A stretch of DNA of 64,000 nucleotides, taken from the NCBI GenBank assembly GCA_030390025.1, contig CM059431.1:151156001-151220000 (forward strand), read 5' to 3'. Position numbers and translations under genes: made by a program. Every line of letters begins with the position of its first letter. Position 1 is the stretch's first letter. Shown here piece after piece: positions 1,351 through 64,000 of the stretch. Origin of the DNA: Squalus acanthias (taxonomy: Eukaryota). The notes under the pieces are model-generated. The model worked only from the letters and a program-made list of their open reading frames with translations, had not been told where the DNA came from and searched no databases.

Positions 1351-1699
1351 TTTCCCCTGGGTCTCTTTTTCCTGGATCTCTTTCCCTAGGGACTCGTTGC
1401 CCTGGGTCTCTTTTCCCTGGATCTATTTTGCCCTGGATCTCTTTTCCCCTGGGACTCTTTACCCCTGGGTCTCTTTTCCCTAGGTCTCTTTCCCCTGGGT
1501 CTCTTCCCCTGGGACTCTTTACCCCTGGGTCTCTTTTCCCTAGGTCTATTTGCCCTGGGTCTCTTTCCCCTGGGTCTATTTTCCACTGAGTCTCTTTCCC
1601 CCTGGGTTTCTTATCCCATTGCTCTCCTTCCCCTGGGTCTCCTACCCCTGGGTCTATTTCCCCTCGATCTCTTGTCACTGGTTCTCCTTTCCCCATGGT

Positions 1700-7600: not shown

Positions 7601-10600
7601 ATCTCCCCTGGGACTTTTCCCCTTGCAATATTCCCCTGGGACTTTTCAACAGGTACTATTCCCCTGGGTCTTTACCCCTGGGCCTATTCACCTGGGACTA
7701 AACCGTTGGGATTTTTCCCATTGGTCTCTTTTCCCCCGGGCCTCTTTTCCTTGGGTCTCTTTTCCCCTGGGTCTCTTTTCCACTGGGCTTCTTTTCCACA
7801 GGTCTTCTTTTCCACAGGGCTTCTTTTCCCCATGGCCTCTTTTCCCCTGGATCTATTCCCCTGAGTCACTTTATCGCGGGTCTCTTTTCCTCTGGTTCTA
7901 CTCCACTGGGTCTGTTTTCCTCTGGGTCTGTTTTACTATGGGTCTATTCCCCCGTGTTCCTTTCCTCTGGGTCTTTTATCTGGGATTTTTCTCTGGGACT
8001 GCTCACCTGGGACTTTTCCCCTGGAACGATTCCAATGGGACATTACCCATGGCACTATTTCCCTGCGTCTTTTCCCCTTTGATTATACCCCTGGGTCTTT
8101 TCCACTGGGACTTTTCCTCTGGGACTTTTCCCCTGGGACTATTGCCCTGGGACTTTTCCTTGGAAATATTCCGCTGGGTCTCGTTTCCACTGGGCCGCTT
8201 TTCCCTGGGTCTATTTTCCCCGAGGTCTCTTTTCCCCTGGGCCTCTTTTCAACTGGGCCTCTTTTCCCCTGATACGCTTCCCCTGTGTCATTTGCGTGTG
8301 CCTTGTCAGAAGTTATTTTCCCCTGGGTCTGTTCCCCTGTGTCTATTCCCCTGGATCTTTTCCCTCGAGGACATTTCCCCTGGGTTCGGCCAGGTCTCTT
8401 TTAATTGGTCTTCTCCCCTCGGTCTCTTTTCCTCTGGTTCCTACCCAGTGTCTTCTCCCCTGGGTCATTCCACTGGGTCTGCTCCCCTGTGAGTCTTCCC
8501 CTGGCTCTCGTTCCCCCTGGGATTTTTCACCTGGATCATTTCCTCTGAGTCTGTTTCCCCTCGGTGTTTTTCCCTGCTTCTTTTCCTCTCGGTCTCTTTG
8601 CCCCTGATCTCATTTTCACTGGATTCATTCACCTGGATCTCTTTTCCCCGGGTCGCTTTTCCTCCGGGTCTATTCCCGTGGGTCTCTTTGCACCTGGGAC
8701 ACCTTTCCCCTCGGTATATTCCCCTGGGTCTCTTTCCCAAGATTTTGTTTTGCCCTGGGTATGTTCCCCTAGGTCTCTTTCCCGCGGGACTCAGTTATTC
8801 TGGTTCTATTCCCCTGGGTCTCAATTCTGCTGGGTCTGTTTTCTGCTGGGTCTATTCCACCGGGTCTCTTTTCCTCTGGGACTTCTACCCTGTGCTTCTA
8901 TCCCAATGGATCTCTACCCCTTGGAATTTTCTCCTGGGACTACTCCACTGGAACTTTTCATCTTGAACTAATCCCAGGGGATATTTCCCCATCACTATTC
9001 CCCTGGTTCTTTTCCCCTGGATCTTTTCTCCCTGGATTATTCCCCGGGACATTTCCCCTGTGTTTCTTCCCCTGGGTCTTTACCCCTGGCCTCTTCCCCT
9101 GGGACTATTCCCTTGGGACATTTCCCCATGGTCTCTTTTCCCCTTAACTATTTCCCCTGGCTTCCTTTTCGCTTGATCACTTTTCCCCTGTTTCACTTTT
9201 CCCCTGGGCTTCTTTTTCACAGGGTCTCTTTTTCCCTGCGCCTGTTTTCCCCATGGCCTGTTTTCAACTGGGTCTCTTTTCCCATGGGTCTCTTTTCCTC
9301 TGGGTCTTTTGCGTGTGCCTTGTCCGTAGGTCCTTTCACCTGGATCTTTTCACCTGGAACCATTACCCAGTGACCTTTCCCCCGAGTCTTACCCCTGTGT
9401 CTATTCCCCTGGATCTTTTCCTATGGAACTTTCGCCGTGGTTCCCCCTGGCCTCTTTTACTTGATCTTCTCCCCTGGGTCTATTTTCCCCTAGTTCTTTC
9501 CCTGTGTCTTCTGCCCTGGGTCGTTCCACTGGGTCTTTTCCACTGGTACTTTTCCACTGGTTCTCCTTTCCCCAGGAATTTTCACTGGGTCGCTTTTCCC
9601 CTTGGTCTCTTCCCTTGGTCTTTTCCCATTAATTATTTCCCTGGCTTTCTTTCGCCCTGGGATTTTACACCTGGGTCTTCTCCCCCGAGTCTCTATTCCC
9701 TTGGGTCTATTCCCTCGGCTCTCTTTTCCTCTGGGTTGTTTATCCTGGGTTTCTATCCCACTGGGTCTCTTCCCCTGGGACATTTCCAATGGGACTACTC
9801 GCCTGGGACTATTCCCCTGGGACTATTCCCTTGGGACTTTACCCCTGGCACCTTTCCCCTGGGTTTTTTTTCCACTGGAACATGTCCCCTGGGACTTTTC
9901 CCCTTGGAATATTCCCCTGGGACTTTTCAACATGTACTGTTCCCCTGGGTCTTTACCCCTTGGCCTATTCCCCTGGAACTTTAGACTTTGGACATTTCCC
10001 CATGTTCTCATTGCCCCGGGCCTCTTTTCCTTGGATCTCTTTTCCCCATGTTCTCTTTTCCCCCTGGGCTTCTTTTCCACAGGGTCTCTTTTCCCCTGGG
10101 CCTCTTTTCCTCTGGGTCTATTCCCCCGGGTCTCTCTCCCCCGTGTCATTTTTAGCCTGGGTCTATTTCCCGTGAGTCTCTTTCCCTAGTGTCACTTTAG
10201 CTCTTGGTCTATTACCCTGGGACTCTTTTCCTCTGGGTCTGTTTTCCTATGGGTCTATTCCCCCGTATCTCGTTTCCTCTGGGTCTTTTACTCTGGGATT
10301 TTTCTCTGTGACTGCTCAACTGGGACCTTTCCCCAGAAACTGTTCCAATGGGACTTGCCGCTGGCACTATTCCCCTGGGTCTTTTCTACTGTGACTATTA
10401 CCCTGTATCTTTTCCACTGGGACTTTTCCTCTTGGACTTTTCCCCTGGGACTATTGCCCTGGGTCTTTTCCACTGGGTATTTTCCTCTGGGACTTTTACT
10501 CTGGGACTATTCCCCTGGGACTTTTCCCCTGTGACTCTTCACCTGAGTCTTCATCCTGGGACTTTTCCCCTGAGCTATTCCACTGGGACATTTCCCCTGG

Positions 10601-13500
10601 GACTTTTCCCCTTGCAATATTCCCCTGGGACTTTTCAACAGGTACTATTCCCCTGGTTCTTTACCCCTGGGCCTATTCACCTGGGACTAATCCCTTGGGA
10701 CATTTCCCCATGGTCTCTTTTCCCCATGGCCTCTTTTCCTTGGGTCTATTCCCCTGAGTCACTTTATCGCGGGTCTCTTTTCCTCTGGGTCTATTCCACT
10801 GGGTCTCTTTTCCTCGGGGTCTGTTTTACTATGGGTCTATTCCCCCGTGTTTCTTTTCCTCTGGGTCTTTTAATCTGGGATTTTTCTCTGGGACTGCTCA
10901 CCTGGGACTTTTCCCCTGGAACCGTTCCAATGGGACATTACCCCTGGCACTTTTTCCCTGTGTCTTTTTCCCCTTTGATTATAACCCTGGGTCTTTTCCA
11001 CTGGGACTTTTCCTCTGGGACTTTTCCCCTGGGACTATTGCCCTGGGACATTTCCTTGGAAATATTCCGCTGGGTCTCGTTTCCACTGGGCGGCTTTTCC
11101 CTGGGTTTAATTTCCCCGAGGTCTCTTTTCCCCTGGGCCTCTTTTCAACTGGGTCTCTTTTCCCCTGGGCCCCTTTTCCCCTGATTCGCTTCCTCTGTGT
11201 CATTTGCGTGTGCCTTGTCAGAAGTTATTTACCCCTGGTCTGTTCCCCTGTGTCTATTCCACTGGGTCTTTTCCCCGGGGACATTTCCCCTGGGTTCGGC
11301 CAGGTCTCTTTTAATTGGTCTTCTCCCCTCGGTCTCTTTTCCCCTGGTTCTTTCCCAATGTCTTCTCCCCTGTGTCATTCCAGTGGGTCTGCTCCCCTGT
11401 GAGTCTTCTCCTGGCTCTCTTTCCCCCTGGGATTTTTCACCTGGATCATTTCCTCTGGGTCTGTTTCCCCTCGGTGTTTTTCCCTGCTTCTTTTCCTCTC
11501 GGTCTCTTTGCCCCTGATCTCATTTTCACTGGTTTCATTCCCCTGGATCTCTTTTCCCCGGGTCGCTTTTCCTCCGGGTCTATTCCCGTGGGTCTCTTTG
11601 CATCTGGGAAAACTTTCGCCTCGGTTTATTCCCCTGGGTCTCTTTCCCAAGGGTCTGTTTTGCCCTGCGTATGTTCCACTAGGTCTCTTTCCCGCGGGTC
11701 ACAATTATTCTGTGTCTATTCCCCTGGGTCTCATTTCCACTGGGTCTGTTTAGTGCTGGGTCTATTCCACGGGGTCTCTTTTCCTCTGGGTCTTCTACAC
11801 TGTGCTTCTATCCCAATGGTTCTCTACCCCTTGGACTATTCTCCTGGGACTTCTTCACTGGAACTTTTCATCATGAACTACTCCCAGGGGATATTTCCCC
11901 TGGCACTATTCCCCTGGGGGTATTCCTCTCTGTTTCTTTTCACCGGTCTCTTTTCCACTGGTTCTTTGACCCCTCGCTTCTTTCCCCCTGGGTCTCTTCC
12001 CTTGGTCTTTTCCACTCGATCGCTTTTCCTCTGGATCTCTTCCCCTGGGTCTGTCTTCTGGTTCTCGTTACCCCTGAATCTCTTTTCCTCCTGTCCTCTT
12101 CCATTTGGTCTTCTCTACTGAGTCTTTTTTCACCTGGCTCTTTTGCCGGTAACTTCTCCCTTGGGTATTTCCACTGGGACTTTTCCCCTGTGACTCTTCA
12201 CCTGGCTCTCGTTCCCCCTGGAATATTTCACCTGGGTCTTTTCCCCTTGGTATTTCCCCTAGGTCGCGTTTCTCCCTGCAGTATTCCCAGGGACATTTCC
12301 CCTGTGTCTCTTCCCCTGGGTCTTTACCCCTGCCTATTCCCCTGGGACTATTCCCTTGGGACATTTCCCCATGGTCTCTTTTCCCCTTAACTATTTCCCC
12401 TGGGTCCCTTTTCGCTTGATTCCTTTACCCCTGTTTCTCTTTTCCCCATGCCTTCTTTTTCACAGGGTCTCTTTTTCCCTGCGCTTGTTTTCCCCTGGGT
12501 CTCGAATCCTCTGGGTCTTTTGCGTGTGCCTTGTCCGTAGATCCTTTACCCTGGGTCTTTTCCCCTGGAACCGTTACCCAGGGACCTTTCACCTTAGTCT
12601 TACTCCTGTGTCTATTCCCCTGGATCTTTTCCTATGGAAATTTCGCCGTGGTTCCCCCGGGCCTCTTTTACTTGATCTTCTCCCTTGGGTCTCTTTCCCC
12701 CTAGTTCTTTCCCTGTGTCTTCTGCCCTGGGTCGTTCCACTGAGTCTTTTCCACTGGCTCTCTTTTCCCCATGGATTTTCACTGGGTCGCCTTTCCCCTC
12801 CGTCTCTTCCCTTGGTCTTTTCCCATGTAACTCTTTCCCTGGCTCTCTTTCGCCCTGGGATTTTACACCTGGGTCCTCTCCCCCGGGTCTCTATCCCCTT
12901 GGATCTAGTCCTTCGGATCTCTTTTCCTCTGGGTTGTTTATCTTGGGTTTCTATCCCACTGGGTCTCTTCCCCTGGGACATTTCCAATGGGACTATGCCA
13001 CTGGGACTGTTCCCCTGGGACTTTACCCCTGGCACCATTCTTCTAGGTTTTTTCCACTGTAACATTTCCCCTGGGACTTTACCCCTGGGGCTATTCCCTC
13101 GGTCTTTACTCCTGGGACTATTCCCTCGATCTTTACTCCTGCGACTATTCCCCTGGTACTGTTCATTGGGACTTTTCCACTGGGTCTCTTTTCCCCTGGG
13201 CCTCTTTTCCCTGGTTCTCTTTTCCCCTAGGTCTCTTTTCCCTGGGCCTGATTTCCACTGGGTCTCTTTTCCCCTGGGCCTGATTTCCACTGGGTCTCTT
13301 TTCCCCAGGATCTTTCAGGTGTTCCTTGTCCCTGGGTCTTTTCCCTTGGTCTTTTCTCCTGAGGATTACCCCTGTGTCTATTCACCTGGGTCTTTTCCCT
13401 GGGATATTTCGCCGTGGTTCCCCCGCCCTCTTTTATTTGTCTTCTCCACCGAGTCTCTTTTCCCTGGTTCTTTCCCTCTGTATTGCCCCCTGTGTCGTTA
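1700..13500. repeat. Higher-order repeat domain A, ~2.9-3.3 kb unit, about 3-4 diverged copies
   Basis: Rare landmarks recur: CCTTGTCCGTAG at 6329/9318/12529, CAACATGTAC at 6942/9928, CCTTGTCAGAAGTTATT at 8301/11213 (variant near 4938), TGAACTA at ~5602/8964/11874. Domain edges are approximate. Confidence 0.85.
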
Positions 13501-40235: not shown

Positions 40236-40643
40236 CGGAGGAAGAGGACCTGTGTGGGAGTGGCAGCAGGACCTGAGAGAAGGCGGAGCGGTCATAAGTG
40301 CGGTTTCAACAGGGTGCTGTGCGTTGGAAGCTTAACGATCTCGCAGACCAGCGGCGGATTTCCAGAGCCACGTCATGATTCAAAGTGATGCGGGCAAGAG
40401 GAAGCAGCTGATTGGGTGAGTACGGCCAGGTGAGTATTTATACTACTCTATAGTTTGACAGTTAAGGTTAAGACTTTATAAAGTTTAGAAGGTCTTAACT
40501 TTTACGGTTATAGTTTCTAAGGTCTCTGTTGTGTAGCGGGGAGTGCTAGTCAACAAGGGACCCTTGAGTATATCATTTAATTGTAGTGTAATTAGTAGCA
40601 TTGATTTGATTTAATTTAATTTAAATTATTTCAAGGGTAAGTC

Positions 40644-41593
40644 ATGGCAGCACAGCTCGTCCCCATGGCATGCTCCTCCTGCACTATGTGCGAAATCAGG
40701 GACACTTCCTGTGCACCTGACGACCATGTGTGCAGGAAGCGTATCAAGCAGAAGCTACTGGCAGACCGCATTGCGGTGCTTCAGCTGCGAATGGATACAT
40801 ACTGGAGCATTCGCGATGCTGAGGACGTCGTGGATATCACGTTTAAGCAGTTGGTAACACCGCAGGTAAAAGCTGCACAGGCATAAAGGGAATGGGTGAC
40901 AGCCAGGCAGAGTAGTATGCGCAGGTAGGTAGTGCAGGGGTTCCCTGTGGCCATCCCCCACTCAAACAGATATATCGCTTTGGATATTGTTGTGGGAGAT
41001 GGCTTATCGGGGGAAGGCAGCTGCAGCCAACTTCCTGGCAACATGGGTGGTTCTGCTGCACAGGACGGGAGAAAAAAGAGCGGGAGAACTATAGTGATAG
41101 GGGATTCTATTGTAAGGGGAATAGATAGGCGTTTCTGCAGCCACAAATGAGACTTCAGGATGGTATGTTGCCTCCCTGGCGCAAGGTTAAAGGATGTATC
41201 GGAGCGGCTGCCGGGCATTCTGGAGGTGGAGGGTGAACAGCCAGTTGTCCTGGTGCATATAAGTAACACCGATAAAGGTAAAAACCGGGATGAGGTCCTA
41301 AAAGCGGAATATAGGGAGTTAGTAGGTAAATTAATAAATAGGAACTCAAAGGTAGTAATCTCAGGATTGTTACCAGTTCCACGTGCTAGTCAGAGTAGAA
41401 ATAGAAGGATATTTCAGATAAATACGTGGCTAGTGCAATGGTTCAAGGGGGAGGGTTTCAAATTCCTGGGACATTGGAACCGGTTCTGGGGGAGGTGGCA
41501 CCTGTACAAACTGGACGGTTTGCACCTGGGCGGGACTGGGCCGATTTCCTAGTGGGAGTGTTTGCTAGTGCTGTTGGGGAGGGTTTAAATTAA
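40644..41593 (+). pseudogene. CR1 ORF1p (zinc finger + coiled coil + SGNH/GDSL esterase), interrupted by stops and frameshifts
   Basis: ACSSC...VCRK, SNRY, IVIGDSIVRG, CLPGARLKDV, VLVHISNTD and DGLHL are spread over ORFs 40644..40886, 40932..41150 and 41160..41552. Confidence 0.9.
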
Positions 41594-41741
41594 ATGGAAG
41601 GGAGTTGGGAATCTGTGCAGGTAGACAGAGGAAAGGGAAGCAAGTATAGAAGCAAAAGACAGGAAGGAGAAAAGCAAAAGTGGCAATCAGAGAAATCAAG
41701 GGTGTAAATCAAACAGGGCCACAGTAATTAATAATTCTAAA

Positions 41742-44700
41742 ATGTCTAAGAGTGTTAAACAAACAAGCTTGAAGGCTTTGTGTCTTAATGTGAGGAGCAT
41801 TCGTAATAAGGTGGATGAATTCGCTGCCCAATTATATGTAATCGGATATGATATAATTGGGATTACGGAGACATGGCTCCAGGGTGAACAAGGCTGGGAA
41901 TTCAACATCCAAGGGTATTCAATATTCAGGAAAGACAGGCAAAAAGGAAAAGGAGGTGGGATAGCATTGCTGCTTAAAGAGGAGATTAACACAATAGTGA
42001 CATGAATCTTGTCATTCATGGGAAATGAATAATTACATAATACTGGGCGGCCTGCTGGTGGCGCTGTCCAGGGAGAGTATAAATACTCGGGCATGGGCCC
42101 AGCTTGCTCAGGACATTATTTAACAGAAACTAGGTGACAACATCCAGCTCACCATGTTGTAATCAGTTGATTAAAGCTTTGTTTAACGCTTAGACCAAGT
42201 GCCTAGTAGATTTCTTCCATCAAATAGTAAGGAAGGATATCAGCTTTGATGACGTGGAATCTGTCTGGGCAGAGCCGAGAAATACCAAGGGGCAGAAAAC
42301 GTTAGTGGGAGTTGTATACAAACCCCCAAACAGTAATGCTGAGTTCGAGGATGGCATTAAACGGTAAATTAGAAACGTGTGCAATAAGCGCACAGCCGTT
42401 ATCATGTGTGACTTTAATGTACATATAGATTGGGCTGACCAAATTAGTAACAATACTGTGCAGGACGAATTCCTTGAGTGGATACGGGATGGTTTCCTGG
42501 ACCAATATGTCGAGGAATCAATTAGAGATCATGCCATCTTCGACTGGGTATTATATAATGAGAAATGATTAATTAGCAATGTTGTTGTGCGAGGCCCCAT
42601 GGGGAAGAGCGATCATAATATGATAGAATTCTTCATTAAGGTGGAGGGTGAAGTAGTTGACTCAGAGACTAGTGTCGTGAATTTAAATAAAGAAACTACG
42701 ATGGCATGAGGCGCGAGTTGGCTAGGATGGATTGGGGAACATAACTTAAAAGGTTGATGGTTGATAGGCAATGGTAAACCTTTAAAGATCGCATGGATGA
42801 AATACAGAACTTGTCCATCCCAGTTTGGCATAACAATAAAACAAAAAGGTGACTCAAACGTGGCTAACAAAGGAAATTAGAGACAGCATAAGATCCAAGG
42901 AGAGGACATATAAATTGGCCAGAAAAATCAGCAAACCTGAGGATTGCGAGCAGGTTAGGATTCAGCAAATGAGGACAAAGGGATGGATTAAGAGGGGGGA
43001 AATGGAGTATGAGCGTAAGCCTGCAGGGAAACTAAAAACTGACAGTAAAAGCTCTTTAAAATTATGTGAATTGAAAAAGATTGGTGAAGTCAAGCGTAGG
43101 TCGTATGTAGTCACAATCAGGAGAATTTATAATGAGGAACAACGCAATGGCAGAGCAATTAAATACATACTTTGGTTCTGTCTTCACAAAGGAGAACACA
43201 AATAACCTCCCAGCGATGTCGGGGAACATAGGGTCTAATGAGACGCAGGAACTGAATGAAATCAGTATTTGTAGGGAAATGATGTTAGTGAAATTGACGG
43301 GATTGAAGGCCGATAAATCCCCAGGGCCTGATAATCTACATTCTAGGGCACTTAAGGAAATGGCCCGAGAAATAGTAGATGCATTGCTGGTCATCTTCCA
43401 AAATTCTATAGAGTCTGGAACTGTCCCAATGGTTTGGAGGGCAGCTAATGAAACCCCACTATTTAAAAAAGGTGGTAGAGAGAAAACGGGGAATTATAGA
43501 CCGGTAAGACTGACATCAGTAGTGGGGAAGTTGCTAGAGTCCATTATCAACGATGTAATAGCAGAGCACTTGGAAAACAGTGACAGGATCGGACAAAGTC
43601 AACATGGCTTTACAAAAGGTAAATCATGCCTGACTAATCTACTGAAATTATTAGAAGATGTAACTGGTAGAATAGATAAGGGAGAACGAGTGGATGTGGT
43701 GTATTTGGACTTTCAGAAGGCTTTCGATAAGGTCCAGCATAAGAGATTAGCGTGCAAAGTTAAAGCACATGGGATTGGGGATACGGTACTGACTTGGACA
43801 GAGAACTGGTTGGCAGACAGGAAGCAAAGAGTTGGAATAAATGGCTCGTTTTCCGAGGGGCAGAAAGTGACTGGTGGGGTACCACAGGAATCGGTGCTAG
43901 GACCCCAGTTATTCACAATATATATTAATGAGCTAGACGAGGAAACTAGGTGTAATATCACCAAGTTTGCAGACGACACAAAGCTGGGTGGGCGTGTGTG
44001 CTGTGAGGACGATGCAGAGAAACTCCAGTATGATTTGGACAAGTTGCCTGATTGGGCAGATGCATGGCAGATGCAGTATAATGTGAATGAATGCGAGGTT
44101 ATCCACTTTGGTGGCAAAAACTGGAAGGCAGATTATTATCTGAACGGCAATCGATTGTGAAATGGGGAAGTGCAACGAGACCTGGGTGTCCTTGTACACG
44201 AGTCGCTGAGGTAAACATGCAGGTGCAGCAGGCGGTTAAGAAGGCAAATGGTATGTTGGCCTTCATAACGAGAGGGTTCGAGTACAGGAGCAAGGATGTC
44301 TTGCTGCTGTGTACAGGGCCTTGGTGCGACCACATCTTGAATATTGTGTGCAGTTTTGGTCGTCTTATCTGAGGAAGGATGTTCTTGCCATGGAGGGAGT
44401 GCAGCGAAGATTCACCAGACTGATACCTGGGATCGCAGGAATGACGGATGAAGAGAGATTGGGTTGATTAGGTTTATATTCGCTCGAGTTTAGAAGAATG
44501 AGAGGGGATCTCATTGAAACTTATAAAATTCTAACAGTACTAGACGGACCAGATGCAGGAAGGATGATCCCGATGGTGGGGGAGTCCAGAACCAGGGGTC
44601 AGAGTGTAAGGATAAGGGGTAAGCAATTTTAGACTGAGAGAAGGAGGAATTTCTTCACCCAGAGAGTCGTGAACCTGTGGAATTCTCTACCACAGAAGGC

Positions 44701-44803
44701 AGTTGAGGCCAATTCATTAAATATATTCAAGAAGGAGTTAGATATATTTCTTAAGGCTAAAGGAATCAAGGGATATGGGGAGAAAGCAGGGACAGGGTAC
44801 TTA
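41742..44803 (+). pseudogene. CR1 ORF2p (APE endonuclease + reverse transcriptase), disrupted
   Basis: APE motifs LNVRSIRNK, GITETWL, RKDR...GGGIAL. RT motifs KSPGPD, NYRPVRLTS, LDFQKAFDKV, GVPQESVLGP, FADDTK. C-terminal VVNLWNSLP. Stops, frameshifts and a solo-LTR insertion break the frame. Confidence 0.95.
41998..42222 (+). mobile_element. 225-bp solo LTR with 5-bp target-site duplication
   Basis: TG...CA ends, with AATAG at 41993-41997 and 42223-42227. Removing it restores the CR1 frame (INTIVRKDIS). TATAAA at 42078 and ATTAAA at 42170. Confidence 0.88.
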
Positions 44804-44898
44804 ATTTGGATAATCAGCCATGATCTCATTGAATGGCGGAGCAGGCTTGAGGGGCCGAATGACCTACTCCAATTCCTATCTTCTATGTTTCTATGTTT

Positions 44899-46040
44899 CC
44901 TCTGTTCCAAGGAAAACAGACCCAGCCTATCCAGTCTTTCCCATAGCTCAGATTCTCAACTCCAGGTAACATCCTTGTAAATCTCCTCTGTACCCTCTCC
45001 AGTGCAATCACAACTTTCCTGTAATGTGGTGATCAGAACTGCACGCAGTACTCTAGCTGAGGCCTAACTAGTGTTTAATACATTTGAAGCATAAGCCCCC
45101 TGCTCTTGTATTCTATGCCACGGCTAATATAGGGCAAGCATTCCGTATGCCTTCTTAACCAACTTATCTACCTGGCCTGCTACCTTCAGGGATCAGTGGA
45201 CATGCACTCCAAGGTCCCTGTGTTCCTCTACGCTACTCTGTGTCCTACCATTTAATGTGCATTTCCTTTCCTTTTTAGCCCACCCCAAATGCATTACCAC
45301 ACACTTCTCCGGATTGAATTTAATTTGCCACTGTTCTGCCCACCTGACCAATTTATTGATATCTTCCTGCAGTCTACAATGTCCTTCTTCTGTGTCAACC
45401 ACACAGCCGATTTTAGTATAATCTGCAAACGTCTTAATCATAACCCCTATATTCAAGTCTTGATCATTGATATATACCACAAAAAGCAAGGGACCTACTA
45501 CTGAGCCCTGCTGAGCACCACTGGAAACAGCCTTCCAGTCACAAAAACACCCATCAACCAGTAACATCTGCTTCATGTCTCCGAGCCAGTTTTGAATCCA
45601 CCTTGACACTTTGCCCTGGGTCCCATGAACATTTAACTTCGTGACCAGTCTGCCATGTGGAACCTTATCAAACGCCTTGCTAAACTCCATATACACGACA
45701 TCAAACGCACTGCCCTCATCTAACCTCCTTGTTACCTCTCAAAAAATGAAATCAATTTGTCAGACACGACCTTCCCTTAACAAATCCGTGCTGACTATCA
45801 TTGATTAATGCGTAGCTTTCTAAATGAAGATTTATCCTGTCCTTCAGAATTGGTCCAATAATTTTCCCACCACCGAGGTTAGGCTGACTGGCCTGTAATT
45901 ACTTGGTCTATCCTTTTCTCCCTTTTTAAACAAGGGTCCCACATTAGCAGTCCTCCAGTACTCCGGCACCACACCTGAAGCCAGAGAGGTTTGAAAAATG
46001 TTGGTCAGGGCCTCTGCTATTTCCTCTTTAGCTTCGCTTA
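44899..46040 (-). mobile_element. CR1 LINE, RT-containing continuation of 39838-40235; cut at 46040 by the provirus
   Basis: Minus ORF 45193..45696 has YMEFSKAFDKVPHGRL, GAQQGSVVGPLLF, FADYTK and WQIKFNPEKC. Confidence 0.93.
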
Positions 46041-47059
46041 TGTAGCCGTCGGCGCAGACTCCATGGATTTTTTTAGATTGTGAACATATACCCTTGTTAA
46101 AAACTGGACAGGCTGTTTAGGGGAAAGCAGTGAAAAACCACTGAAGCTGAAGGTGGCTGACGTAACCATTTTGCATTCGTCTGGTAATGAACTGTCCTTG
46201 GGAACAATGGCCCGAGAGGCCCATTCCCAAGTCATGAATAACGAGGCTGGCGACTCAATGTTTCTGGAGAAGATGAGCTCGTTAATTCAATCGGCTGGGA
46301 GATGGAAACGAGATCTAAACCATCCAAACCTGGGAGGAAGCGTGTAATACATTTCCCAGAGGCCATGTGTCCATTAAAAGCAGAGACAGCTGTCTGTGTT
46401 TTGGGGGGGAGGGTATATCAGAGAGCAGTTTGGATAGCTCTCTCGCTCTCTCCTGCCGTCCACACAACGGAACGTCAAGAGAGCTGAGCCTTGCTCTTCC
46501 AACCGAGACGGACTTCGACTCAGACTGGGATTCGCATTCCACAAGGCCGGCATGGAACCAGGTAGCTGAGATGGACGGGTGGAAGATACTAGCAAGATCA
46601 AAAGGGCAATCTAGGTGAGTATTGCAATGCCTACACACCCACAAGATGACTTGGCTATGTGAGGGGTTGCATGTATGTACCTATCAAACCATAGGGGGAT
46701 TAGTGTTGGAAGGGTCCTGTGATAGTTTAGTTAAAGTGAGGGTTTTGTTTAGGCCATGGTAAGTCAGCACGGCAGGGGCTTGTTGGACAAGTCAGGATTG
46801 TACTGTTTTAAACTCTACTGTTGTGTTCACACCGCTCGTACTGTATGCGAGTGGTGTGGTTTTATCAACCTCAATAAACACTGCACTGGTGAGCTCGAAA
46901 ACGCTGTCCGTGTTCCAATCTGTCCTCAGTAACCTCTATCATCCAGAACTTGTAGTAAGGGTGTTTGCGTGCTCGCTATGGGCGAGCTGAAACCACTTAC
47001 AATAATTGGCGATTGCGGCAGGGGCGATTGGAAATTGGCCACCGCAGAAACCGGTTACA
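46041..47059 (+). repeat. Putative 5' LTR (~0.96-1.02 kb)
   Basis: Starts TGTAGCCG exactly where the CR1 homology stops. Ends CGGTTACA at 47059, an imperfect inverted repeat; an alternative end is CTTACA at 47001. AATAAA at 46873. No second LTR is available to confirm the ends. Confidence 0.7.
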
Positions 47060-47063
47060 GATT

Positions 47064-47081
47064 TGGCGACTGCGGCAGGAC
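47064..47081 (+). promoter_or_regulatory. Primer-binding site, tRNA-Arg(TCG)-type
   Basis: TGGCGACTGCGGCAGGAC matches 17/18 to the complement of the vertebrate tRNA-Arg(TCG) 3' end as recalled (TGGCGACCGCGGCAGGAC). It begins after a 4-nt spacer following the LTR-terminal CA. Confidence 0.75.
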
Positions 47082-47100
47082 GATAGGTTGTGGATTAGAT

Positions 47101-48775
47101 ATGAACAGTTTGGAGGGCAAGAGATCTGGAATAGAGGACAGAATTTCCTCCTGCATGTTTAAAAAGGTTAAACTATCCCAGCAATGGGTGCTGGGGATGT
47201 TGCGCTCTAAGAGTCCCCAAGATAGGACCGCAGAGTTGACAGGGAGCAAGGAACACAGGAAGTTCAAAGAGAAGGCGATTTGGCTCATGTGCTGTCCAAA
47301 GCAAGTTCAACTGCTCCGGCAGCAGGTTGATAAGCTCAAACACGAGCTGAAGGAGTCTGAAGACAAGTCAGACGCAAGGGGGATATTCGGGAGTAGATTA
47401 GTGGAGGGGTTGCGCGAGGAAAGACAGGTACGACGTGCGCAGGAATAGACCTCCCGTAATATGGGGGAATACCTGCGGCGCCAGGTAACGGAGGCCACGT
47501 TAAATGAGCAGTCCTTACGGAAGGAGAACGCAAGATTAACAACGAGAGCTTCCGGTTTGGAGGGTCAGCTAAGGGACATTAAAATAGCTCATAAGGGACC
47601 TAGAAGTAAGGGCTATGAAGACTCTGATCACGATCCCTGAGAAGAAAGGATTAAAAATTGACCCAAGCCTTGTCTGGGGCCATTGGCATGGTCAGTTTAA
47701 TGGCACCAGGGAAAACCCGGGTGGAGTGGGAAAAGGAGTGTCAGGAAGCCAATGATAAGGTTCAGGACAGGGAAGTTCCACCAGCGCCGGAAGCGCCACT
47801 GAGACCAATGTATCCTCTGTGGCAGCAAAAGTTTGGTACACCAACTTCAAACGGTGACGAGGGCCCGCTGCAGAGCGATTAATTGGTGCCCTTCACCACA
47901 CCGCAGTTGCAAGCCATGGTAGCAGAGTTCCCCAAACTAGAACAAGACGGGGATCCCTCAGTTCACTTTATGGAGGTCGAGCAGGTAGGGGTGATCAACG
48001 GGTGTAGCGAGGGCGAGACCCACAGGCTGATGCTGCTCTCTCTTGATGGGAAAATGTATCAGAGCCTGTCCGCAGCCACAAATGCGGGGCGAGGCACCAC
48101 ATAGGGGTTGAAAGAGGAGATCCTGAGAGCCATGGGGCCTACTCAGGGTAGTCCGTTGTCAGAAGTGGAATGGACTCTACAGTTGGCCGGCGAGGCACAA
48201 GCTGCATTTGCGGACAGGCTATGGCCGGTGTAAGCAAAGGCAACTAAAGGTGCGCCAGACCGCGCACAACTGATAGGGGTCCCCAGAAATCACTGGCTCA
48301 GGACAATGGTAGCAAACAGCCTGCCACGGATTAAAGCCAAGGCAGAAGCATGGTTTGACTCCGAGGAACTCGGGAACATGGAGGCAGGCGTGCTCTGGAA
48401 ATTGGGCTTAGCTTTTAGAGCCGGTTCTGGGGAGGAGGTCAACAAAAGGGGAGGGTACATGAGACGAAGGCCAGTAAGGGGGATAGGAAGGAATGGCATC
48501 AGGAAGGGGGTAACACCGACGAGTCTAAGATTTGCTTCAAGTGTGGGATGATGGGACACTGATGGCGGGATTACCCGGCAGAAAAGGGGGGGTCAGGCCG
48601 AAGGGGTCCTGCCGTGCGAAAACCCCAGGTCACTGAGGCGAAGGAGGCGACCAATGAACTGTTTGATGCTCCGGTGGCCACCCTTCGCACGGTGCTGGGG
48701 AAGGACAAAGGAAGGCTAGACGCTGCCGTGAGCAGCATAACGGCGACCGCACCCGCATGTCTTCCTTCCTCCTGA
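47101..48775 (+). pseudogene. gag: gag (coiled-coil N-terminus, retroviral-type capsid with MHR, CCHC knuckle), disrupted
   Basis: YPLWQQ...VPFTTPQLQAMVAEFPKLEQDGDP (capsid N-terminal-like). QLAGEAQAAFADRL at 48180 (MHR pattern QxxxExxxxFxxR). CFKCGMMGH*WRDY at 48533. Confidence 0.8.
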
Positions 48776-51700
48776 TTAGAACGCGCCCAGCCTGAGTACA
48801 AGTGTCCGCTCACTTATAATGAGTGGGACAGGCCCTGTGTTAAGATATTGGTGCAGACGGTGCAGGGGAGATATTTGATGGACACCGGATTTTCCAGCAC
48901 GGTGGTCCATTCGTTGGACCCGACCAATTCACAGTGGTCGAGCAAGGTCCCCTTTAGCCTAATGGGATTCACAGGGAACGAGCAGGCGGAAGCAATGTCC
49001 AAACCCCTGAGAATAGAGCGAGGGTCCCTCCACACCACGTGGAAGTGCGTGCTAATGAAATGGGAGCAACCAGGGTGAGGAATCCTCGGGGCTGATTTCA
49101 TGTTAGCCAACCTGGTCATTGTGGACCTGAGGAATCACTGCCTGAGGGGGCAGTGGTCTCGGACAAGACAGAGGAGGTGAAAGTGATCCCCAGAGATAAG
49201 GGAGGAGGGGGTGTGTATGCACCAGGAAACCCAAAGGGAGATACGACCTGGAACAGTTGGTTATTAGTATCACACCCAGTACCAGGTGAATGTACGGGAC
49301 AAGCTCGCCGCATTCGCCACCCATAAACACGATTGCGGCAGGGTGACCGGGGTAGAGGTCCGGGTGCAAGGGGACCCCATGTCATGGCCACAAAAGCAGT
49401 ATAGTTTCCCCCGGGAGGCAGAAGCCAACTTGGAGACGGCATTGGGATCCCTGGTAAAACAGGGGTTGTTGAGACGAATAGCCACCCACGTGAACTCACC
49501 ACTCTGGCCGCTGAAGAAACCCAACCAGTCCTGGAGAGCCACCGTGGACTATCGGGTCCTTAATAAGATCATCCCAGCTTCCGCGCACACAGTCGCAGTT
49601 GTCGCCGATCTGATAGGGAGCTTTCCAGCAACCGCAACCACATTCAAGGTGCTGGATATCTCCAAAGGGTTTTGGTCGATTCCCCTCAGACGGGAAGACC
49701 TATACAAGTTTGCATTCTCTTTTAAAGGGCAGCAGTATACTTGGACACGCCTTCACCAAGGGGTCGACAACAGTCTCTCAATATTCCACCAATGCATGGC
49801 AGATGCATTAAAAGTACTCAGCCGACCGCACCAGTTAATCCAGTACGTGGACGAACTGCTTTTGTTCTCCGCAGAGGGGGAGAACCACGGGCCACTACTG
49901 GACGAGCTGCTAAAGCTGTTGTAGGAGGCGGGGTTCAAGGTCAACCCCAAAGAAGCCCAGATCGACCAGGAGGATGTGAAATTCCTAGAGCTGAACGTAA
50001 GGGCTGGCGAAAGGGCCATAGACGAGGCTAGGAGGAAGGCAGTACAGGAGCTACTGGCCCCCAAGAAAGTGACTGGGGTAAGGTCTTTTCCGGGAATCAC
50101 AGGGTACTGCCGGGACTTCATAGAGTGTTACACAACCACGGCAGCCCCTCTGCTTCGGGTCCTCCGACAAGGAGTCGAGTGGGAGTGGGATCAGAACTGC
50201 CAGGAAGCGTTCACTCGCCTCAAAGGAGATTTACAGATGGCACCCGCATTGGGAGTCATTAACGGTGTGGAATAAATCTTCTTCGAAGTAGCAGCCAGCG
50301 GGGATAGCTTTAGCGTGGTGTTGCTCCAGGAGCGACATGGCAAGCTATGGCTCGTGGTATAAAAATCTAGGGTTCTCACCGAGTTAGAACGGGGATATTG
50401 CAACTGCGAGAGGCACCTCCTCGTCATGCATTGGGCCGTAAAACGCTCTCAGCTTTTTACGGGTTCATCCCCAATAGTACTCTTGACCCTACACATCCCA
50501 ACTCAGATGCTGTTGGATGGGAGAATCAAATATGGGAGAGTGAGCTGTTCCCGTATTGCTCGCTGGACATTGCTCTTCTCACTGTTGAACTTTAGAGTGC
50601 AGGGGTTGATCGAGCCAAAGCTAGCAGCCAACATGATTTTCCCAGGGACGGCACACACTTGTACGGTAGAAGGGGTTTGGGATGTAGATGAAGGATTCCG
50701 GGCCGGGATATACCCGACGGGTCGGGACATCTACATAGACGGGTCCAGTTCGGTCGTGAAAGGGGAGCGTCTCACCGGGTGCGGAATCTATGAAAGTACG
50801 GCTAAAATAGCGAAGGCCATTAAACTCCCCATCACCCTGAGCGCTCAGCACGCCGAACTGGCGGTGGTGGCGTACGTGGTCACCAACCCCGACGAGTTCC
50901 TCACCCCCTACACCATTTGCTCGGAGTCTATGTTCCCATGCAACTCATGCACGGAATACTTGGCAATCTGGGCCAGGCGCGGATTCAAGTCCACAGGTGG
51001 GAAGTCCCTAGCAACAGCATCGCTGCTAGGTAAAATTTTGGAGTCCACAGGCAGCCGGGGAGATCACTATATTCACAAAGTTAAAGCACATTCAAAGACA
51101 GAGCCCAAGTGGGAGGGCAACCAAAAGGCAGACGAGCTAGCCAATCAGTGCGCCAGGGAAGGAGCATTCTGGGATCCGTACAAAGCAGGTCCGGTAGCAG
51201 CAATCCGGGACAAGGGAGGCACAAAGGGGGTAGCTTTGGCCCCGGACTTAAAGCATGTCCAAGCCCAGGATCCCGTCCTTAAGGCAATCCTGGTAAAGAG
51301 AGACATTAGGTGTGTCCATAGAAGATCCGTTCGGGGCAGCGGACATTAGTATCAAAGAGGGGATGCGTTTCAAAGGGGATTGGTGGGTAGTCCCAGCGCA
51401 GCACCGAGAGGAGTTTATCCAGTTGGCCCATGCGGGTCCGGGAGCGGGACACCCAGGGTCGGAAACTACCTGGCAAACCTTAGAGGAGGCAGCGTAGTGG
51501 CCCCAGCTCCGGGAGGATGTCCGAGTTTTTTGTGCGCACTGTTTGGTGTGCGCCAACAATAAACCCGATCCACAGCACAGCAAAGCCCCCATAGGACACA
51601 CCAGGAGGGTGGATGGGCCGTGGTGGTCCCTGCAGGTCGAATTAATCGGACCACTACCCACCACTAAAGCAGGCAACAAGTACTGTTTAGTCCTGGTGGA

Positions 51701-52652
51701 CGTATTTTCCAAGTGCGTGGAAGCCTTCCCCTGCCGAGCAGCCTCGGCACTAGCAACAACTAGAATTCTGTTGAGGGAAGTGTTCTCCTGGTGGGGGCTG
51801 CCACAGGTCGTGGAGTCCGACCAAGGGAGCCATTTCACGGGGCAGGTGAGGCAGGCCACCTTAACACTCTTGGGAATACAAGGGAAGCGGCATGCGGCTC
51901 ACAACACACAGTCATCGGGGATTGTGGAGCGCATGAACTGGACACTGAAAGAAAGACTGAGGCAGGAGATAAGCCCGTTCCTGCAGAGATGGAACGAGGT
52001 CTTGCCTATAATCTTAATGGGTGTCCGGGCCAGCACCTCCAGAAGCACAGGGTAGTCCCCACACGAGCTTATGACCGGGAGGATTATGTGCACCCCAACC
52101 CATGTGTTGGCGTCGGTTCTCACCGAAGCGCAGGTCAGGGAGGTAAACCGGGACAGGTTTGTCCAGATTCTGTACGAGACATGGAAACGGATTCACTGGC
52201 AGGCAGCCAGTAACCTGAGAAGCCAGTACCAGAAAAATCAGCTGCTGTTAGAACCCCAGAGAACCCAAGATTGGGAGGAGGGAGACCAGGAAATGGTTCG
52301 TAATTACGCACGAGTAAGTGCGTTTGAGATGCGGTAGATGGGCCCTTATAATATCGTGGATAAAGCGAGCCACATGGTATATGCAGTAAAACTCCCGAAA
52401 CTCACGAAATAGATTCCTGTCAATCAGTGCAAGTTGTTTAATCCCGAGAAGTGGAAAACAAAGGCCAAGAGGCACCAGGGCACAGTCAAGAGCCTGGTGG
52501 ACGCGGGTCTTCCTCCCATGCTGTGTTTCGATGATGACCTGGAGGACAGGGCGGTAAGTAGCAGCAGTCGTGTCCCATGGCCTAGGGTGCCATGGACGCC
52601 TCCCTACTCACTGACTGTGAGCCACAAGAGACCCCGACGGGAGAGGTCTTAA
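48776..52652 (+). pseudogene. pol: pol: protease, RT, degenerate RNase H (tether), second RNase H, integrase with GPY/F
   Basis: PR: LMDTGFS. RT: NSPLWPLKKPNQSWRATVDYRVLN, LDISKGFWS, QYTWTRLHQG, YVDE. Tether at ~50276-50580. RH: IDGS...SAQHAEL...KVKAH...GNQKADELA. IN: H..GH...CxxC, VDVFSK, SDQGSHF, SSGIVER, GPY. Confidence 0.93.
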
Positions 52653-52801
52653 ATGTGGCGCTCGTTAATGCGTCAGGGAACACTGTAAATATTTTGTAAA
52701 TAACCAAAACCAGATCATTGGAGGAAAATTCTCTCACAGAACGGAACTGTTTTACTTTTGTTTTGGTAGGGAACCAAAGGAAATCGGAGGAACAAGGGGA
52801 T

Positions 52802-53242
52802 ATGGCCAATACATTTATCGTACTTCTATTACTAATGATGATCGGGAATGGCAGCATGGAAAGAGGAGACACCGAGGTATCCTTCCTCTACGGCTGCACA
52901 GAGGGAACGGGCCAACCGTGACACAGTGGGGTAGAACAGGGGACACGGCCGGGATGGACACTTACTTCCACGAGAGAAGGTGGGCAGGGTGGCTGTGATC
53001 GAACTTGACTCGATACTCCGTCAGCGAGGGTTTCACGTATGGAGAAGCTTCCATATCGTTTCCCAAACTGCAGGTCACAGGCACACGGGTTCGGGTGACC
53101 GAGGGGAAATGTGTCTGTCTAAGATGTGAGAGTTACATTCCCTTGGGACGGTACTAGTGGTTAAGGAAGTTGGGCCAGGCCAAGGGTAACCAATCCGCGG
53201 ACTGGGAGAAACTGGGGGACGTATATGTACCGATAGATTACA
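52802..53242 (+). pseudogene. Candidate env-like (secreted glycoprotein) 5' remnant
   Basis: MANTFIVLLLLMMIGNGS is signal-peptide-like. Pyrimidine tract + AG at 52746-52769. A shifted frame from 52954 has NLT and NQS sequons and CxCxxC. Env position after IN. No recognisable homology. Confidence 0.45.
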
Positions 53243-53396
53243 GTGTGTTTGAGATAGAATGTGATGAGAAGAGATGTCGAGCTGAAGCAATGAGCTGACG
53301 GAGCGTGTGTTCAGAGGGCGGCTCCAGGCAGGAAATGAAGGGAATGTAATTCCAAACCACAGCCACTCAGTGTCGCTGCTTCAGTGGCCTTTCAGC

Positions 53397-53468
53397 GCCC
53401 GGATAGCTCAATCGGTAGAGCGTCAGACTTTTAATCTGAGTTCCTGGGATCAATTCGCTGTTCGTTCA
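53397..53468 (+). pseudogene. tRNA-Lys(UUU) pseudogene, copy 1
   Basis: GCCCGGATAGCTCAATCGGTAGAGCGTCAGACTTTTAATCTGAG. The 5' half is near canonical; the T-loop (GGATCAA) and the 3' acceptor strand are degenerate. Confidence 0.9.
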
Positions 53469-56818: not shown

Positions 56819-57123
56819 ATACTAGAAAAAGATTAGGTGCTGAGATTAAGCTGCAGGGAGTCGGATCTTGGAGAAGGGATGAGATTGAGGAGTAGCAGGT
56901 CAGATTGAAGGCAAAATTTCAGATTCAGGAGATATGGTCATTTAAGTTCGGAACAGACTCGCGGCTGTTAATGTGTTTGAGATAGAATGTGCTGAGAAGA
57001 GGTGTCGAGCTGAATCAATGGGGTGACGGTGCGTGTACTCAGAGGTTGACTATAGGCAGGAAGTGAAGGAAATGTAATTCTCTGAAACAGCCAATCAGTG
57101 TCGCTGTTTCGTTAATGTTCAGA

Positions 57124-57196
57124 GCCCTGATTGGTCAGACGGCAGAGCATCAAACTTTTAATCTGAGGGTCCAGGATTTAAGTCCCTGTTCGGGCG
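57124..57196 (+). pseudogene. tRNA-Lys(UUU) pseudogene, copy 2 (73 nt)
   Basis: GCCCTGA...CTTTTAATCTGAGGGTCCAGGATTTAAGTCCCTGTTCGGGCG. One mismatch in each of the four stems, T-loop TTC>TTT, and no T4 terminator directly downstream. Confidence 0.9.
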
Positions 57197-57861
57197 TTGC
57201 TTTAATCAAGGGAAACACTATTTGATTTGCACTTTAAAGCACCGATTTTCATTATAACCTATCACTAAAGTCGGTTTATATTGCAAAAAAGAATTGCTCG
57301 TGTTTTATGGCGCCATAAGGAAATAAGATTTGACAATCTTAAACAAAAGGAAAAGCCACAGCACGCACTTGAAACCAACACCATCATATTTAAAATGTGA
57401 TGCTGCACGAACTGAGATACCCAGGCTCACGCTTTCAATTTCACACAGCGACCTCGACTGGCTGACATGGAACATTACATCTTTCACCTTCCGCATTTCC
57501 CACTGCATTAATCCCGCGTGAACAACGCATTTCTCTCACACACCCTCATTCAATGGCTGCCACAAGCCTGAATCACAAATACAGTCCCACTCACCCACGT
57601 CTCACTCTTTATAAGCGCTACAATACAGTTCACAGCGCACAGTAACGGCTTCAGTTTGCATTAAGAAACAATTCAATCTGGTTCTGTAAAGTGTGCTGCC
57701 CGGAAGGGAGAGAAATGTTAAGAAAAAGCACAATATTTAACAGGTTCAAATGCTAAAAGCTGTACGAGGCCAAAAAACGATGTTAAATTTATTGATGATT
57801 ATTCATAATCAAAAAGCAAAGCATATGGAAATTGGGAAATGAAGATGTGGGACAGAGGCCA

Positions 57862-63647: not shown

Positions 63648-63961
63648 GGCGGTGAGATTAAGGAGAAGGGAGTCAGATTGGGAGCAAGGAATGAGATTGA
63701 GGAGTAGGGATCAGATTGAGTTGGGATCAGATTGAAGAAGAATGTTCAGATTCAGGAGTAAGGGTAATTTCAGTTCGGAGCAGACTCGAGGCAGGTTGAT
63801 GGCTCTTATTGTGATTGAGATGGAATGTGCTGAAAAAAGATGTCGAGCTGAAGCAATGGGATGACGGTGCGCGTGTTCAGGAAGCGGCTCCAGGCAGTAA
63901 GTGAAGAGAATGCAATTCCTCCCAAAGCCACTCAGTGTCGCTGCTTCGTTGGTACTTCAAA

Positions 63962-64000
63962 GCCCGGCTAGCATAGTCGACAGAGTGTCAGACTTTTAAT
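63962..64000 (+). pseudogene. tRNA-Lys(UUU) gene/pseudogene, copy 3 (cut by the window end)
   Basis: GCCCGGCTAGCATAGTCGACAGAGTGTCAGACTTTTAAT with a mutated D-arm/A box, and the same upstream flank as copies 1 and 2. Confidence 0.85.

What the first reader, a model, noticed from the sequence alone, without database searches (positions are those of the whole stretch)
50276..51160. Dual RNase H: a still-readable Ty3-type domain lacking all three catalytic acids, then a cellular/retroviral-type RNase H
Seen: domain 1 is FFEVAASGDSFSVVLLQE...V*KSRVLTELERGYCNCERHLLVMHWAVK...LLTLH...RIARW. It aligns by eye to Ty3 RH (TDAS..GAVL.Q; SR.L...E..Y...E.ELLA; TDH; R..RW), with TDAS>VAAS, ExE>ERH and TDH>TLH. 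Domain 2 is IYIDGSS...SAQHAEL...ICSES...W..RGF...HKVKAH...GNQKADELA. Inference: a snapshot of the old RNase H decaying into the retroviral connection domain, much less eroded than in orthoretroviruses.
Basis: partly seen in the sequence, partly recalled or inferred. Interest (0 to 1): 0.75.

Follow-up and report, generated by a model that had tools for sequence, protein, structure and literature searches.

The report
Retroviral tether domain: conserved, not decaying
This broken endogenous retrovirus has the usual retroviral layout, a catalytically dead RNase H 'tether' followed by a normal RNase H, and the tether is kept by strong purifying selection rather than decaying, with four conserved Cys/His residues that may form an unrecognised zinc site.

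Summary
Observation confirmed. Pfam finds a Ty3-type RNase H-like domain, then RNase_H, inside a broken provirus. None of 45 sister copies examined keeps an acid at the three Ty3 catalytic columns.

This is the known tether/connection domain, already described with 32% identity to Ty3 RNase H in lokiretroviruses (PMC7947760). It is not a snapshot of decay. Its dN/dS is 0.05, against 0.07 for RT and 0.14 for the active RNase H, and it shares one old origin with other retroviral tethers.

'Less eroded' holds for the lineage, whose tether has diverged about half as fast relative to RT as gamma, epsilon and foamy tethers. But this copy scores below Moloney MLV on the Pfam model.

RT trees place the element among basal canonical retroviruses near snakehead retrovirus and foamy viruses, not lokiretroviruses.

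New lead: a tether-specific C/H/HxC quartet in gamma, epsilon, snakehead-like and loki-type RTs, absent from foamy and Ty3/gypsy rows; a possible zinc site, untested. Earlier scan notes cover a similar Env elsewhere in this genome; none covers the tether.

The parts
46041..47001 (+). 5' LTR (TG...CA); no 3' LTR in the window
   Evidence: Best other copies 82-91% identical over the whole length, lying upstream of pol hits and downstream of env hits elsewhere in G000; ends read; no second copy in 40000-64000
47007..47079 (+). Two tandem primer-binding-site-like motifs (47007-47022 and 47064-47079); tRNA type not determined
   Evidence: Read from the sequence; PBS role inferred from position and the TGG start
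47104..48775 (+). gag region, broken by stops and frameshifts; weak C-terminal zinc knuckle
   Evidence: Three-frame translation; zf-CCHC E 0.05-0.09, below cut-off; gag identity inferred from position
48776..49150 (+). Retroviral aspartyl protease, one stop
   Evidence: PF00077 E 2.3e-4, above the cut-off
49268..50278 (+). Reverse transcriptase polymerase and thumb; stops at 49922 and 50273
   Evidence: PF00078 E 1.1e-23; best PDB matches foamy and MLV RT, E about 1e-48 to 1e-45
50279..50662 (+). Tether/connection domain (dead Ty3-type RNase H fold) and its C-terminal linker; former acid columns at 50291, 50414 and 50489; stop at 50360
   Evidence: PF17917/PF17919; column mapping; fold; dN/dS
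50405..50662 (+). Conserved Cys380, His409, His463, Cys465 quartet (codons at 50405, 50492, 50654, 50660): candidate structural zinc site, untested
   Evidence: 45, 43, 43 and 45 of 45 genomic copies; cross-lineage counts
50729..51154 (+). RNase H of RNase H1/retroviral type; acid columns at 50738, 50855, 50924 and 51131
   Evidence: PF00075; PDB matches to foamy RNase H, human RNase H1 and XMRV RNase H
51342..52643 (+). Integrase (frameshifted from the RT frame, several stops)
   Evidence: PF17921 E 5e-15, PF00665 E 2e-11
52802..53241 (+). 5' stub of env (signal-peptide-like start, frameshifted); the provirus is cut off here
   Evidence: DNA match to 11 of 11 sister env loci ends at 53240-53245; 150 scored matches in G000

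Best explanation
The stretch is the tether (connection) domain and RNase H of a broken, 3'-truncated endogenous retrovirus from a large family that falls among basal canonical retroviruses; its first RNase H fold lacks the catalytic acids in every copy examined and is likely kept as a structural spacer and nucleic-acid-binding part of RT, while the second fold likely did all the RNA cutting in the active virus. Shown: domain order, loss of the acids, purifying selection, one clade with other tethers, two RNase H-type folds in the model. Inferred from XMRV/MLV RT work: the polymerase-thumb-tether block holds the RNA/DNA hybrid and a flexible linker positions the RNase H downstream. The ancestor of lokiretroviruses and canonical retroviruses likely lost the catalytic centre once, long ago. 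This lineage has simply changed its tether slowly since. The tether also gained two cysteines that Ty3-type RNase H lacks; with two histidines they may bind a structural zinc that ties the linker to the old active-site face (inferred from conservation only).
For: Pfam order. 0 of 45 copies with an acid at the three columns, while domain 2 keeps its acids. dN/dS between subfamilies: tether 0.047, RT 0.072, RNase H 0.141. Cross-species identity among proteins found by an RT search, so not chosen on the tether: tether 53.6%, RT 57.4%, RNase H 41.6%, mean of 21 pairs. Tether tree: all 41 tethered rows form one group apart from Ty3/gypsy and caulimovirus RNase H (93/98), with the canonical side at 100/99. 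RT trees put the window inside canonical retroviruses at 100/99 under LG+G4 and LG+C20. Literature: tether degeneration predates the loki/canonical split (PMC7947760; PMC9040795). The XMRV connection contacts the hybrid and its RNase H is mobile (PMC3616737 passages).
Against: No biochemistry exists for this family. The 45 copies were picked by similarity to the tether, which lowers tether dN among them, and dS between subfamilies is near saturation (1.35-2.16), so the ratios are rough. Tether-tree support for the loki+canonical node is unstarred (93/98). The link to snakehead retrovirus is weak (93/50) and unresolved under the mixture model. The tether alone finds no PDB relative by single-sequence search and was not folded and searched alone. 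Three relatives keep a single acid (P0023 and P0031 the Glu, P0017 possibly the third Asp).
Confidence: 0.9

Rival explanations
1. One reading: the domain is an intermediate caught in the act of decaying from an active Ty3 RNase H into a connection domain.
For: It stays recognisably Ty3-like: 24% identity to six Ty3/gypsy RNase H rows, against 17% for gamma, 20.5% for epsilon and 16% for foamy. Intact relatives score 60.8-86.1 bits on PF17917 (11 of 11), the highest among canonical-side rows. Short tether branch.
Against: Purifying selection as strong as on RT; the same dead state in frog, coelacanth and loki-type rows; one clade with other tethers. Caulimovirus rows, which keep D-E-D, score only 42.7-42.9 bits and 19% identity, so likeness to Ty3 is not a measure of catalytic decay.
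Confidence: 0.05
2. The element is a lokiretrovirus, which would extend that group to a cartilaginous-fish-type host (my starting reading).
For: Nearest named proteins are 'NYNRIN-like' Pols of frogs and coelacanth. Tether state and rate resemble loki. The integrase groups with loki-type and Ty3/gypsy rows apart from other retroviruses (97/94). A sister copy's Env piece resembles F-type fusion proteins (ESM Atlas 0.92-0.94, weak).
Against: The five published loki RT rows seen (Aro, Pma, Cne, Lch, Str) carry a PFG(Y)-type motif; this family carries LPQG like snakehead retrovirus. Both RT trees separate four loki-motif proteins (99-100) from the canonical clade holding the window (100/99). The AU test rejects joining them (p 0.010). 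Wang and Han found 0 of 6 chondrichthyan genomes positive. RNase H tree: loki-motif rows are their own clade (100/98).
Confidence: 0.07
3. The element is a foamy-like (clade Tu) endogenous retrovirus.
For: Best PDB matches for the whole Pol and for the RNase H are foamy virus chains. The AU test does not reject grouping with foamy (p 0.21).
Against: The protease is PF00077-type, with no Spuma_A9PTase hit. There is a weak Gag zinc knuckle. The C/H/HxC quartet is present here and in 0 of 16 foamy rows. No tree groups it with foamy.
Confidence: 0.1

Closest known systems
[quoted passage not shown]
   Same: Dead RNase H fold between thumb and an acquired RNase H1-type domain; same Pfam models hit; aligns end to end with MLV and foamy RT
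   Different: Diverged about half as fast relative to RT as gamma, epsilon and foamy tethers. Lacks the first acid, which 3 of 4 gamma rows keep
Lokiretroviruses (Wang and Han, PMC7947760) and Odin retrotransposons (PMC9040795)
   Same: Ty3-readable tether (32% and 27% to Ty3 RH in those papers), similar substitutions at the acid columns, similar integrase, possibly F-type Env
   Different: RT motif and RT trees place this family on the canonical side; AU p 0.010 against joining loki-motif rows
Snakehead retrovirus and SnRV-like / clade Huo (class III) ERVs, including elephant shark CmiERV lineage I (PMC4422223, PMC6001957, PMC4977317)
   Same: LPQG-type RT; SnRV is the nearest labelled virus in the LG+G4 trees (98 SH-aLRT; 93/50); such ERVs are reported from shark, coelacanth, amphibians and zebrafish, the hosts of the nearest hits
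   Different: Only 31% identical to SnRV over Pol. Grouping unsupported under the mixture model. SnRV's tether has a long branch and its integrase groups with foamy. CmiERV sequences were not compared
Ty3/gypsy (Metaviridae) RNase H, e.g. Ty3 RT PDB 4OL8
   Same: Fold and motifs of domain 1
   Different: Ty3 has one RNase H with D358/E401/D426/D469 and no second domain; here all four acids are absent and a second RNase H follows

Membership tests
Retroviral tether/connection domain | Ty3-type RNase H fold between RT thumb and a second RNase H | tested here: met
   Pfam order; AlphaFold2 secondary structure; whole-model alignment to foamy, MLV and HIV RT
Retroviral tether/connection domain | Catalytic acids lost across the family | tested here: met
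   0 of 45 copies
Retroviral tether/connection domain | Common origin with other retroviral tethers | tested here: met
   Tether tree, 93/98 and 100/99; lenti, delta, alpha and beta rows left out as unalignable
Retroviral tether/connection domain | No nuclease activity; structural role in RT | not testable with these tools
   Inferred from residues and from XMRV work
Canonical Retroviridae (ERV) | LTR-PBS-gag-PR-RT-tether-RH-IN-env order | tested here: met
   env is a 5' stub and the 3' LTR is missing in this copy
Canonical Retroviridae (ERV) | RT inside the canonical retrovirus clade | tested here: met
   100/99 in two models
Lokiretrovirus | RT in the loki clade, sister to canonical retroviruses | tested here: not met
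   AU p 0.010. Loki stand-ins were four natural proteins labelled by motif match to published rows, not the published sequences
Lokiretrovirus | Dual RNase H with Ty3-readable tether | tested here: met
Lokiretrovirus | Env related to paramyxo/pneumovirus F (PF00523) | tested here: inconclusive
   No PF00523 hit in 12 env pieces or genome-wide (control did not ring); single-sequence fold pLDDT 38; ESM Atlas F-type clusters 0.92-0.94 with low recognition score
Lokiretrovirus | Integrase close to CGIN1/NYNRIN | tested here: inconclusive
   Relatives are named NYNRIN-like; unresolved group with loki-type and Ty3/gypsy integrases; no CGIN1 row in the tree
SnRV-like / clade Huo ERVs | RT monophyletic with snakehead retrovirus | tested here: inconclusive
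   93/50, polytomy; ERV-L, ERV4 and CmiERV references not available as labelled rows
Spumaretrovirinae / foamy-like | RT monophyletic with foamy viruses; A9 protease | tested here: inconclusive
   Not grouped in any tree but AU p 0.21; protease hits PF00077, not PF03539
Structural CHHC zinc site | Four Cys/His ligands conserved together | tested here: met
   All four in 45 of 52 tethered non-foamy rows, 0 of 29 foamy, Ty3/gypsy and caulimovirus rows
Structural CHHC zinc site | Ligands meet in space and bind zinc | not testable with these tools
   No coordinates returned; the HxC stretch has pLDDT under 50 at 158-165

The most novel reading that the evidence does not exclude
When the old RNase H lost its Mg-binding acids, the tether gained a new structural metal site. 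Cys380, His409, His463 and Cys465 here (C409, H438, H493, C495 of Moloney MLV RT by my numbering) bind one zinc that clamps the tether-RNase H linker onto the dead active-site face. The site would be ancestral to lokiretroviruses and canonical retroviruses, lost in foamy viruses, and unnoticed in the most used laboratory RT because the XMRV crystal model ends at Pro487. This shark-type family would be a slowly evolving basal canonical lineage that keeps the ancestral tether and integrase and probably an F-type Env.
Probability: 0.35. Interest if true: 0.65.

Novelty: new member of a known kind. Interest (0 to 1): 0.35.

Why it matters
The flagged feature is textbook retroviral architecture and was already shown in Ty3-readable form, so on its own it is ordinary. 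Two things add value. First, the family is a canonical-side lineage whose tether has changed as little as the lokiretroviral one, which makes it a good reference for the retrotransposon-to-retrovirus transition. If its Env is truly F-type, it bears on Wang and Han's open scenarios for the origin of Env. Second, the tether-specific Cys/His quartet gives a cheap, direct test of whether the dead RNase H was re-purposed rather than merely kept, in an enzyme (M-MLV RT) used in every cDNA kit and prime editor.

Tried and rejected
Lokiretrovirus membership, my 80% starting reading: dropped after the motif comparison and trees.

Minus-strand reading of 50276-51160: stops throughout.

Tether alone against the PDB: only a chance hit at E 1.8.

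Env typing: no PF00523 hit, no longer homologs, no PDB hit, unusable single-sequence model (pLDDT 38, not searched further). Only the Atlas lead remains.

Viral-contig search with the window RT alone found nothing; the alignment query found one locus, L043.

The first quick RT tree mis-cut P0009 and skipped four rows without the anchor motif; it was redone. P0023, first labelled loki-type, fell in the window clade and was relabelled before the AU test. P0011 and P0085 were dropped from the tether tree for poor alignment. Lenti, delta, alpha and beta rows were left out of the tether alignments. Eight rows lacked an integrase piece and 16 lacked an RNase H piece. The RNase H tree is unresolved at depth, so the donor of domain 2 is not addressed.

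Literature searches for a zinc site in the connection domain listed no paper on it. PMC3616737 has no occurrence of 'zinc' or 'Cys'. The 5DMQ paper (PMC4917968) and prime-editor cryo-EM papers were not read, and the library lacks most subscription journals, so the site may be in print.

The host class was not tested; 'cartilaginous fish' comes from earlier AI notes. No complex prediction and no read mapping were run.

Full report
What is there. Window 46041-53241 (+) is one broken provirus: an LTR, two tandem PBS-like motifs, a frameshifted gag, protease, RT, the flagged stretch, integrase and a 5' stub of env, cut off at about 53241 where a tRNA-containing repeat unit begins. It is about 10% diverged from its nearest sisters at the DNA level. 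The family is large: a search with domain 1 scored 150 matches, all 70% identical or more, out of 6036 candidates in the 3.7 Gb genome. The host class was not tested; earlier AI notes call it a cartilaginous fish.

The observation. Pfam gives RT_RNaseH (PF17917, residues 338-437) and then RNase_H (PF00075, 488-629). AlphaFold2 gives two successive RNase H-type folds at mean pLDDT 86.4. The second matches XMRV, human and E. coli RNase H at Z 16-18.6; the first was not searched alone. The Ty3 acid columns, anchored through a Ty3/gypsy row that aligns to Ty3 itself (residue numbers from PMC5371799 passages), hold Ala, His and Leu in this copy. No acid occurs at these columns in 29 of 29 nearest and 16 of 16 more distant copies. 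The fourth acid is also missing. Domain 2 keeps its four acids in 24-28 of 29 and 16 of 16 copies. This copy itself is dead, with three stops in the Pol frame and private substitutions in the RT motif and at one RNase H acid.

Is it decaying? No. Between the two subfamilies (464 pairs) dN/dS is 0.047 for the tether, 0.072 for RT and 0.141 for the active RNase H. The copies were picked by tether similarity and dS is near saturation, so I checked an independent set: seven proteins found by an RT search, including frog and coelacanth Pols, have mean pairwise identities of 57.4% (RT), 53.6% (tether) and 41.6% (RNase H). In a tether tree all 41 tethered rows group apart from Ty3/gypsy and caulimovirus RNase H (93/98), and the branching roughly follows the RT tree. 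The catalytic loss is therefore old and shared, as Wang and Han concluded (PMC7947760, parts 1-3 of 4 read; PMC9040795, parts 1-2 of 4).

Is it less eroded than in orthoretroviruses? It depends on which. PF17917 is not hit by 3 delta, 3 lenti or 4 alpha/beta RTs. It is hit by 7 of 7 gamma (35.7-51.6 bits), 3 of 3 epsilon (57.9-61.4), snakehead retrovirus (47.6) and 5 of 5 foamy (22.4-32.0), against 37.3-40.6 for this copy. L066, identical to the Moloney MLV RT chain over the aligned length, scores 49.8, and 3 of 4 gamma rows even keep the first Asp. Intact members of the window's clade score 60.8-86.1 (11 of 11). Tree distance from the common node, tether over RT, is about 1.0 for this clade and 1.1 for loki-type rows, against 1.9-2.4 for gamma, epsilon, SnRV and foamy. 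So the lineage does keep the least altered tether on the canonical side among the rows tested, on a par with lokiretroviruses, whose tether was reported at 32% identity to Ty3 RNase H. Group labels for the IMG/VR rows rest on Pfam (foamy, lenti), a PDB match (MLV), a motif match to a published row (SnRV) and recalled motifs plus tree clustering (epsilon, delta, alpha/beta).

Which virus group. I began at 80% lokiretrovirus because the nearest named hits are NYNRIN-like Pols of frogs and coelacanth. The five published loki RT rows I saw in the supplement carry a PFG-type motif, whereas this family and SnRV carry LPQG. With four natural loki-motif proteins as stand-ins, RT trees put the window inside canonical retroviruses at 100/99 under LG+G4 (62 rows) and LG+C20 (33 rows). 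The AU test rejects joining it to loki (p 0.010) but not to foamy (p 0.21). Grouping with SnRV is weak (93/50). SnRV-like ERVs are already reported from elephant shark (PMC4422223, part 1 of 2), coelacanth, amphibians and zebrafish (PMC4977317, PMC6001957, PMC4131045, passages), and class III ERVs are abundant in cartilaginous fish (PMC11089739 passages). The integrase falls with loki-type and Ty3/gypsy rows (97/94, unrooted), which fits a slowly evolving basal lineage. Env of a sister copy has weak Ig-domain hits (E 0.03-0.08 in 3 of 12 pieces) and an F-type resemblance in the ESM Atlas that the tool itself marks as weak. Earlier notes in this genome report an F-like Env with an Ig domain and name lokiretrovirus Env as closest. 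I could not confirm that they describe the same family; if they do, its RT is not lokiretroviral. Other papers seen as passages only: 10.1101/2023.10.26.564294, PMC12440569 (its supplements were unavailable, and may hold alignments that bear on placement), PMC8922424, 10.1101/2024.03.25.586437, PMC10435555, PMC4299795. PMC12193657 was seen as a listing abstract; it calls SnRV an unclassified orthoretrovirus.

Among 128 tether and linker columns in 52 tethered non-foamy rows (median conservation 38%), two cysteines are 98% conserved and occur in 0 of 7 Ty3/gypsy and 0 of 16 foamy rows; they are the only columns in the top twelve that Ty3/gypsy rows lack altogether. With the His after the third acid column and a His two residues before the second Cys they form a C...H...HxC set. 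It is complete in gamma 11 of 11, epsilon 3 of 3, SnRV 1 of 1, window clade 15 of 17 plus the window, loki-type 5 of 9 and unlabelled rows 9 of 10. It is complete in 0 of 16 foamy, 0 of 7 Ty3/gypsy and 0 of 6 caulimovirus rows. HxC occurs in 50 of 967 background windows of 40 residues. Three of the four loki-type rows without HxC have CxC or CxxC there, the His/Cys exchange typical of metal ligands (general knowledge). The first Cys lies three residues before the old Glu and the first His beside the old third Asp, so both flank the dead centre. In MLV RT these are C409, H438, H493 and C495, numbered by me from the 5DMQ chain using W406 and P487 as anchors. The XMRV structure was traced only to Pro487 and its paper does not mention zinc (PMC3616737 passages). 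Against: the HxC stretch has pLDDT under 50 in my model, no coordinates could be measured, alignment programs tend to line up cysteines, and five paper searches cannot show absence from print. I put the zinc site at about 35%.

Verdict. The feature is real and correctly annotated, but it is the standard retroviral tether, already described in Ty3-readable form, and it is conserved rather than decaying. New member of a known kind; interest 0.35, raised by the slow-evolving basal lineage and the testable Cys/His quartet. The scan's notes hold no earlier finding on this tether.

Noticed in passing
window 1-39830: About 40 kb of a degenerate pyrimidine-rich satellite with a unit near 14-15 bases (Tandem Repeats Finder run on 1-12000; strong AT and GC skew to 40000).
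   Followed up: partly
window 53244-53468, 56836-57333, 63648-64000: Three diverged copies (71-83%) of a repeat unit containing a tRNA-like gene (Rfam tRNA at 53397-53468 and 57124-57196; anticodon region reads as Lys by eye). The provirus is cut off exactly where the first unit begins.
   Followed up: partly
window 47007-47079: Two tandem PBS-like motifs 57 bases apart behind the LTR; primer tRNA not identified.
   Followed up: no
window about 40600-44900 (+) and 44900-46040 (-): Decayed CR1-like LINE fragments flank the LTR (family call from recall, not scanned).
   Followed up: no
L032-L034 env pieces; P0003 residues 1214-1291: Weak Ig-domain hits in the N-terminal part of Env in sister copies (E 0.03-0.08) and behind the Pol of a frog relative (E 0.012), suggesting the Ig-bearing Env is lineage-wide.
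   Followed up: partly
P0023, P0031, P0017; gamma rows L045, L046, L057: Different tether lineages each keep a single different former catalytic acid; no tethered row keeps two.
   Followed up: partly
PDB 8WUS chain E: By my numbering the RNase H-deleted M-MLV RT chain ends one residue after the candidate ligand C495, so the usual truncation keeps the whole Cys/His quartet.
   Followed up: no
P0026, P0041, P0048, P0111 and others: Unnamed proteins with the lokiretrovirus RT motif came up in the representative search and form their own clade in RT, tether, RNase H and integrase trees.
   Followed up: partly
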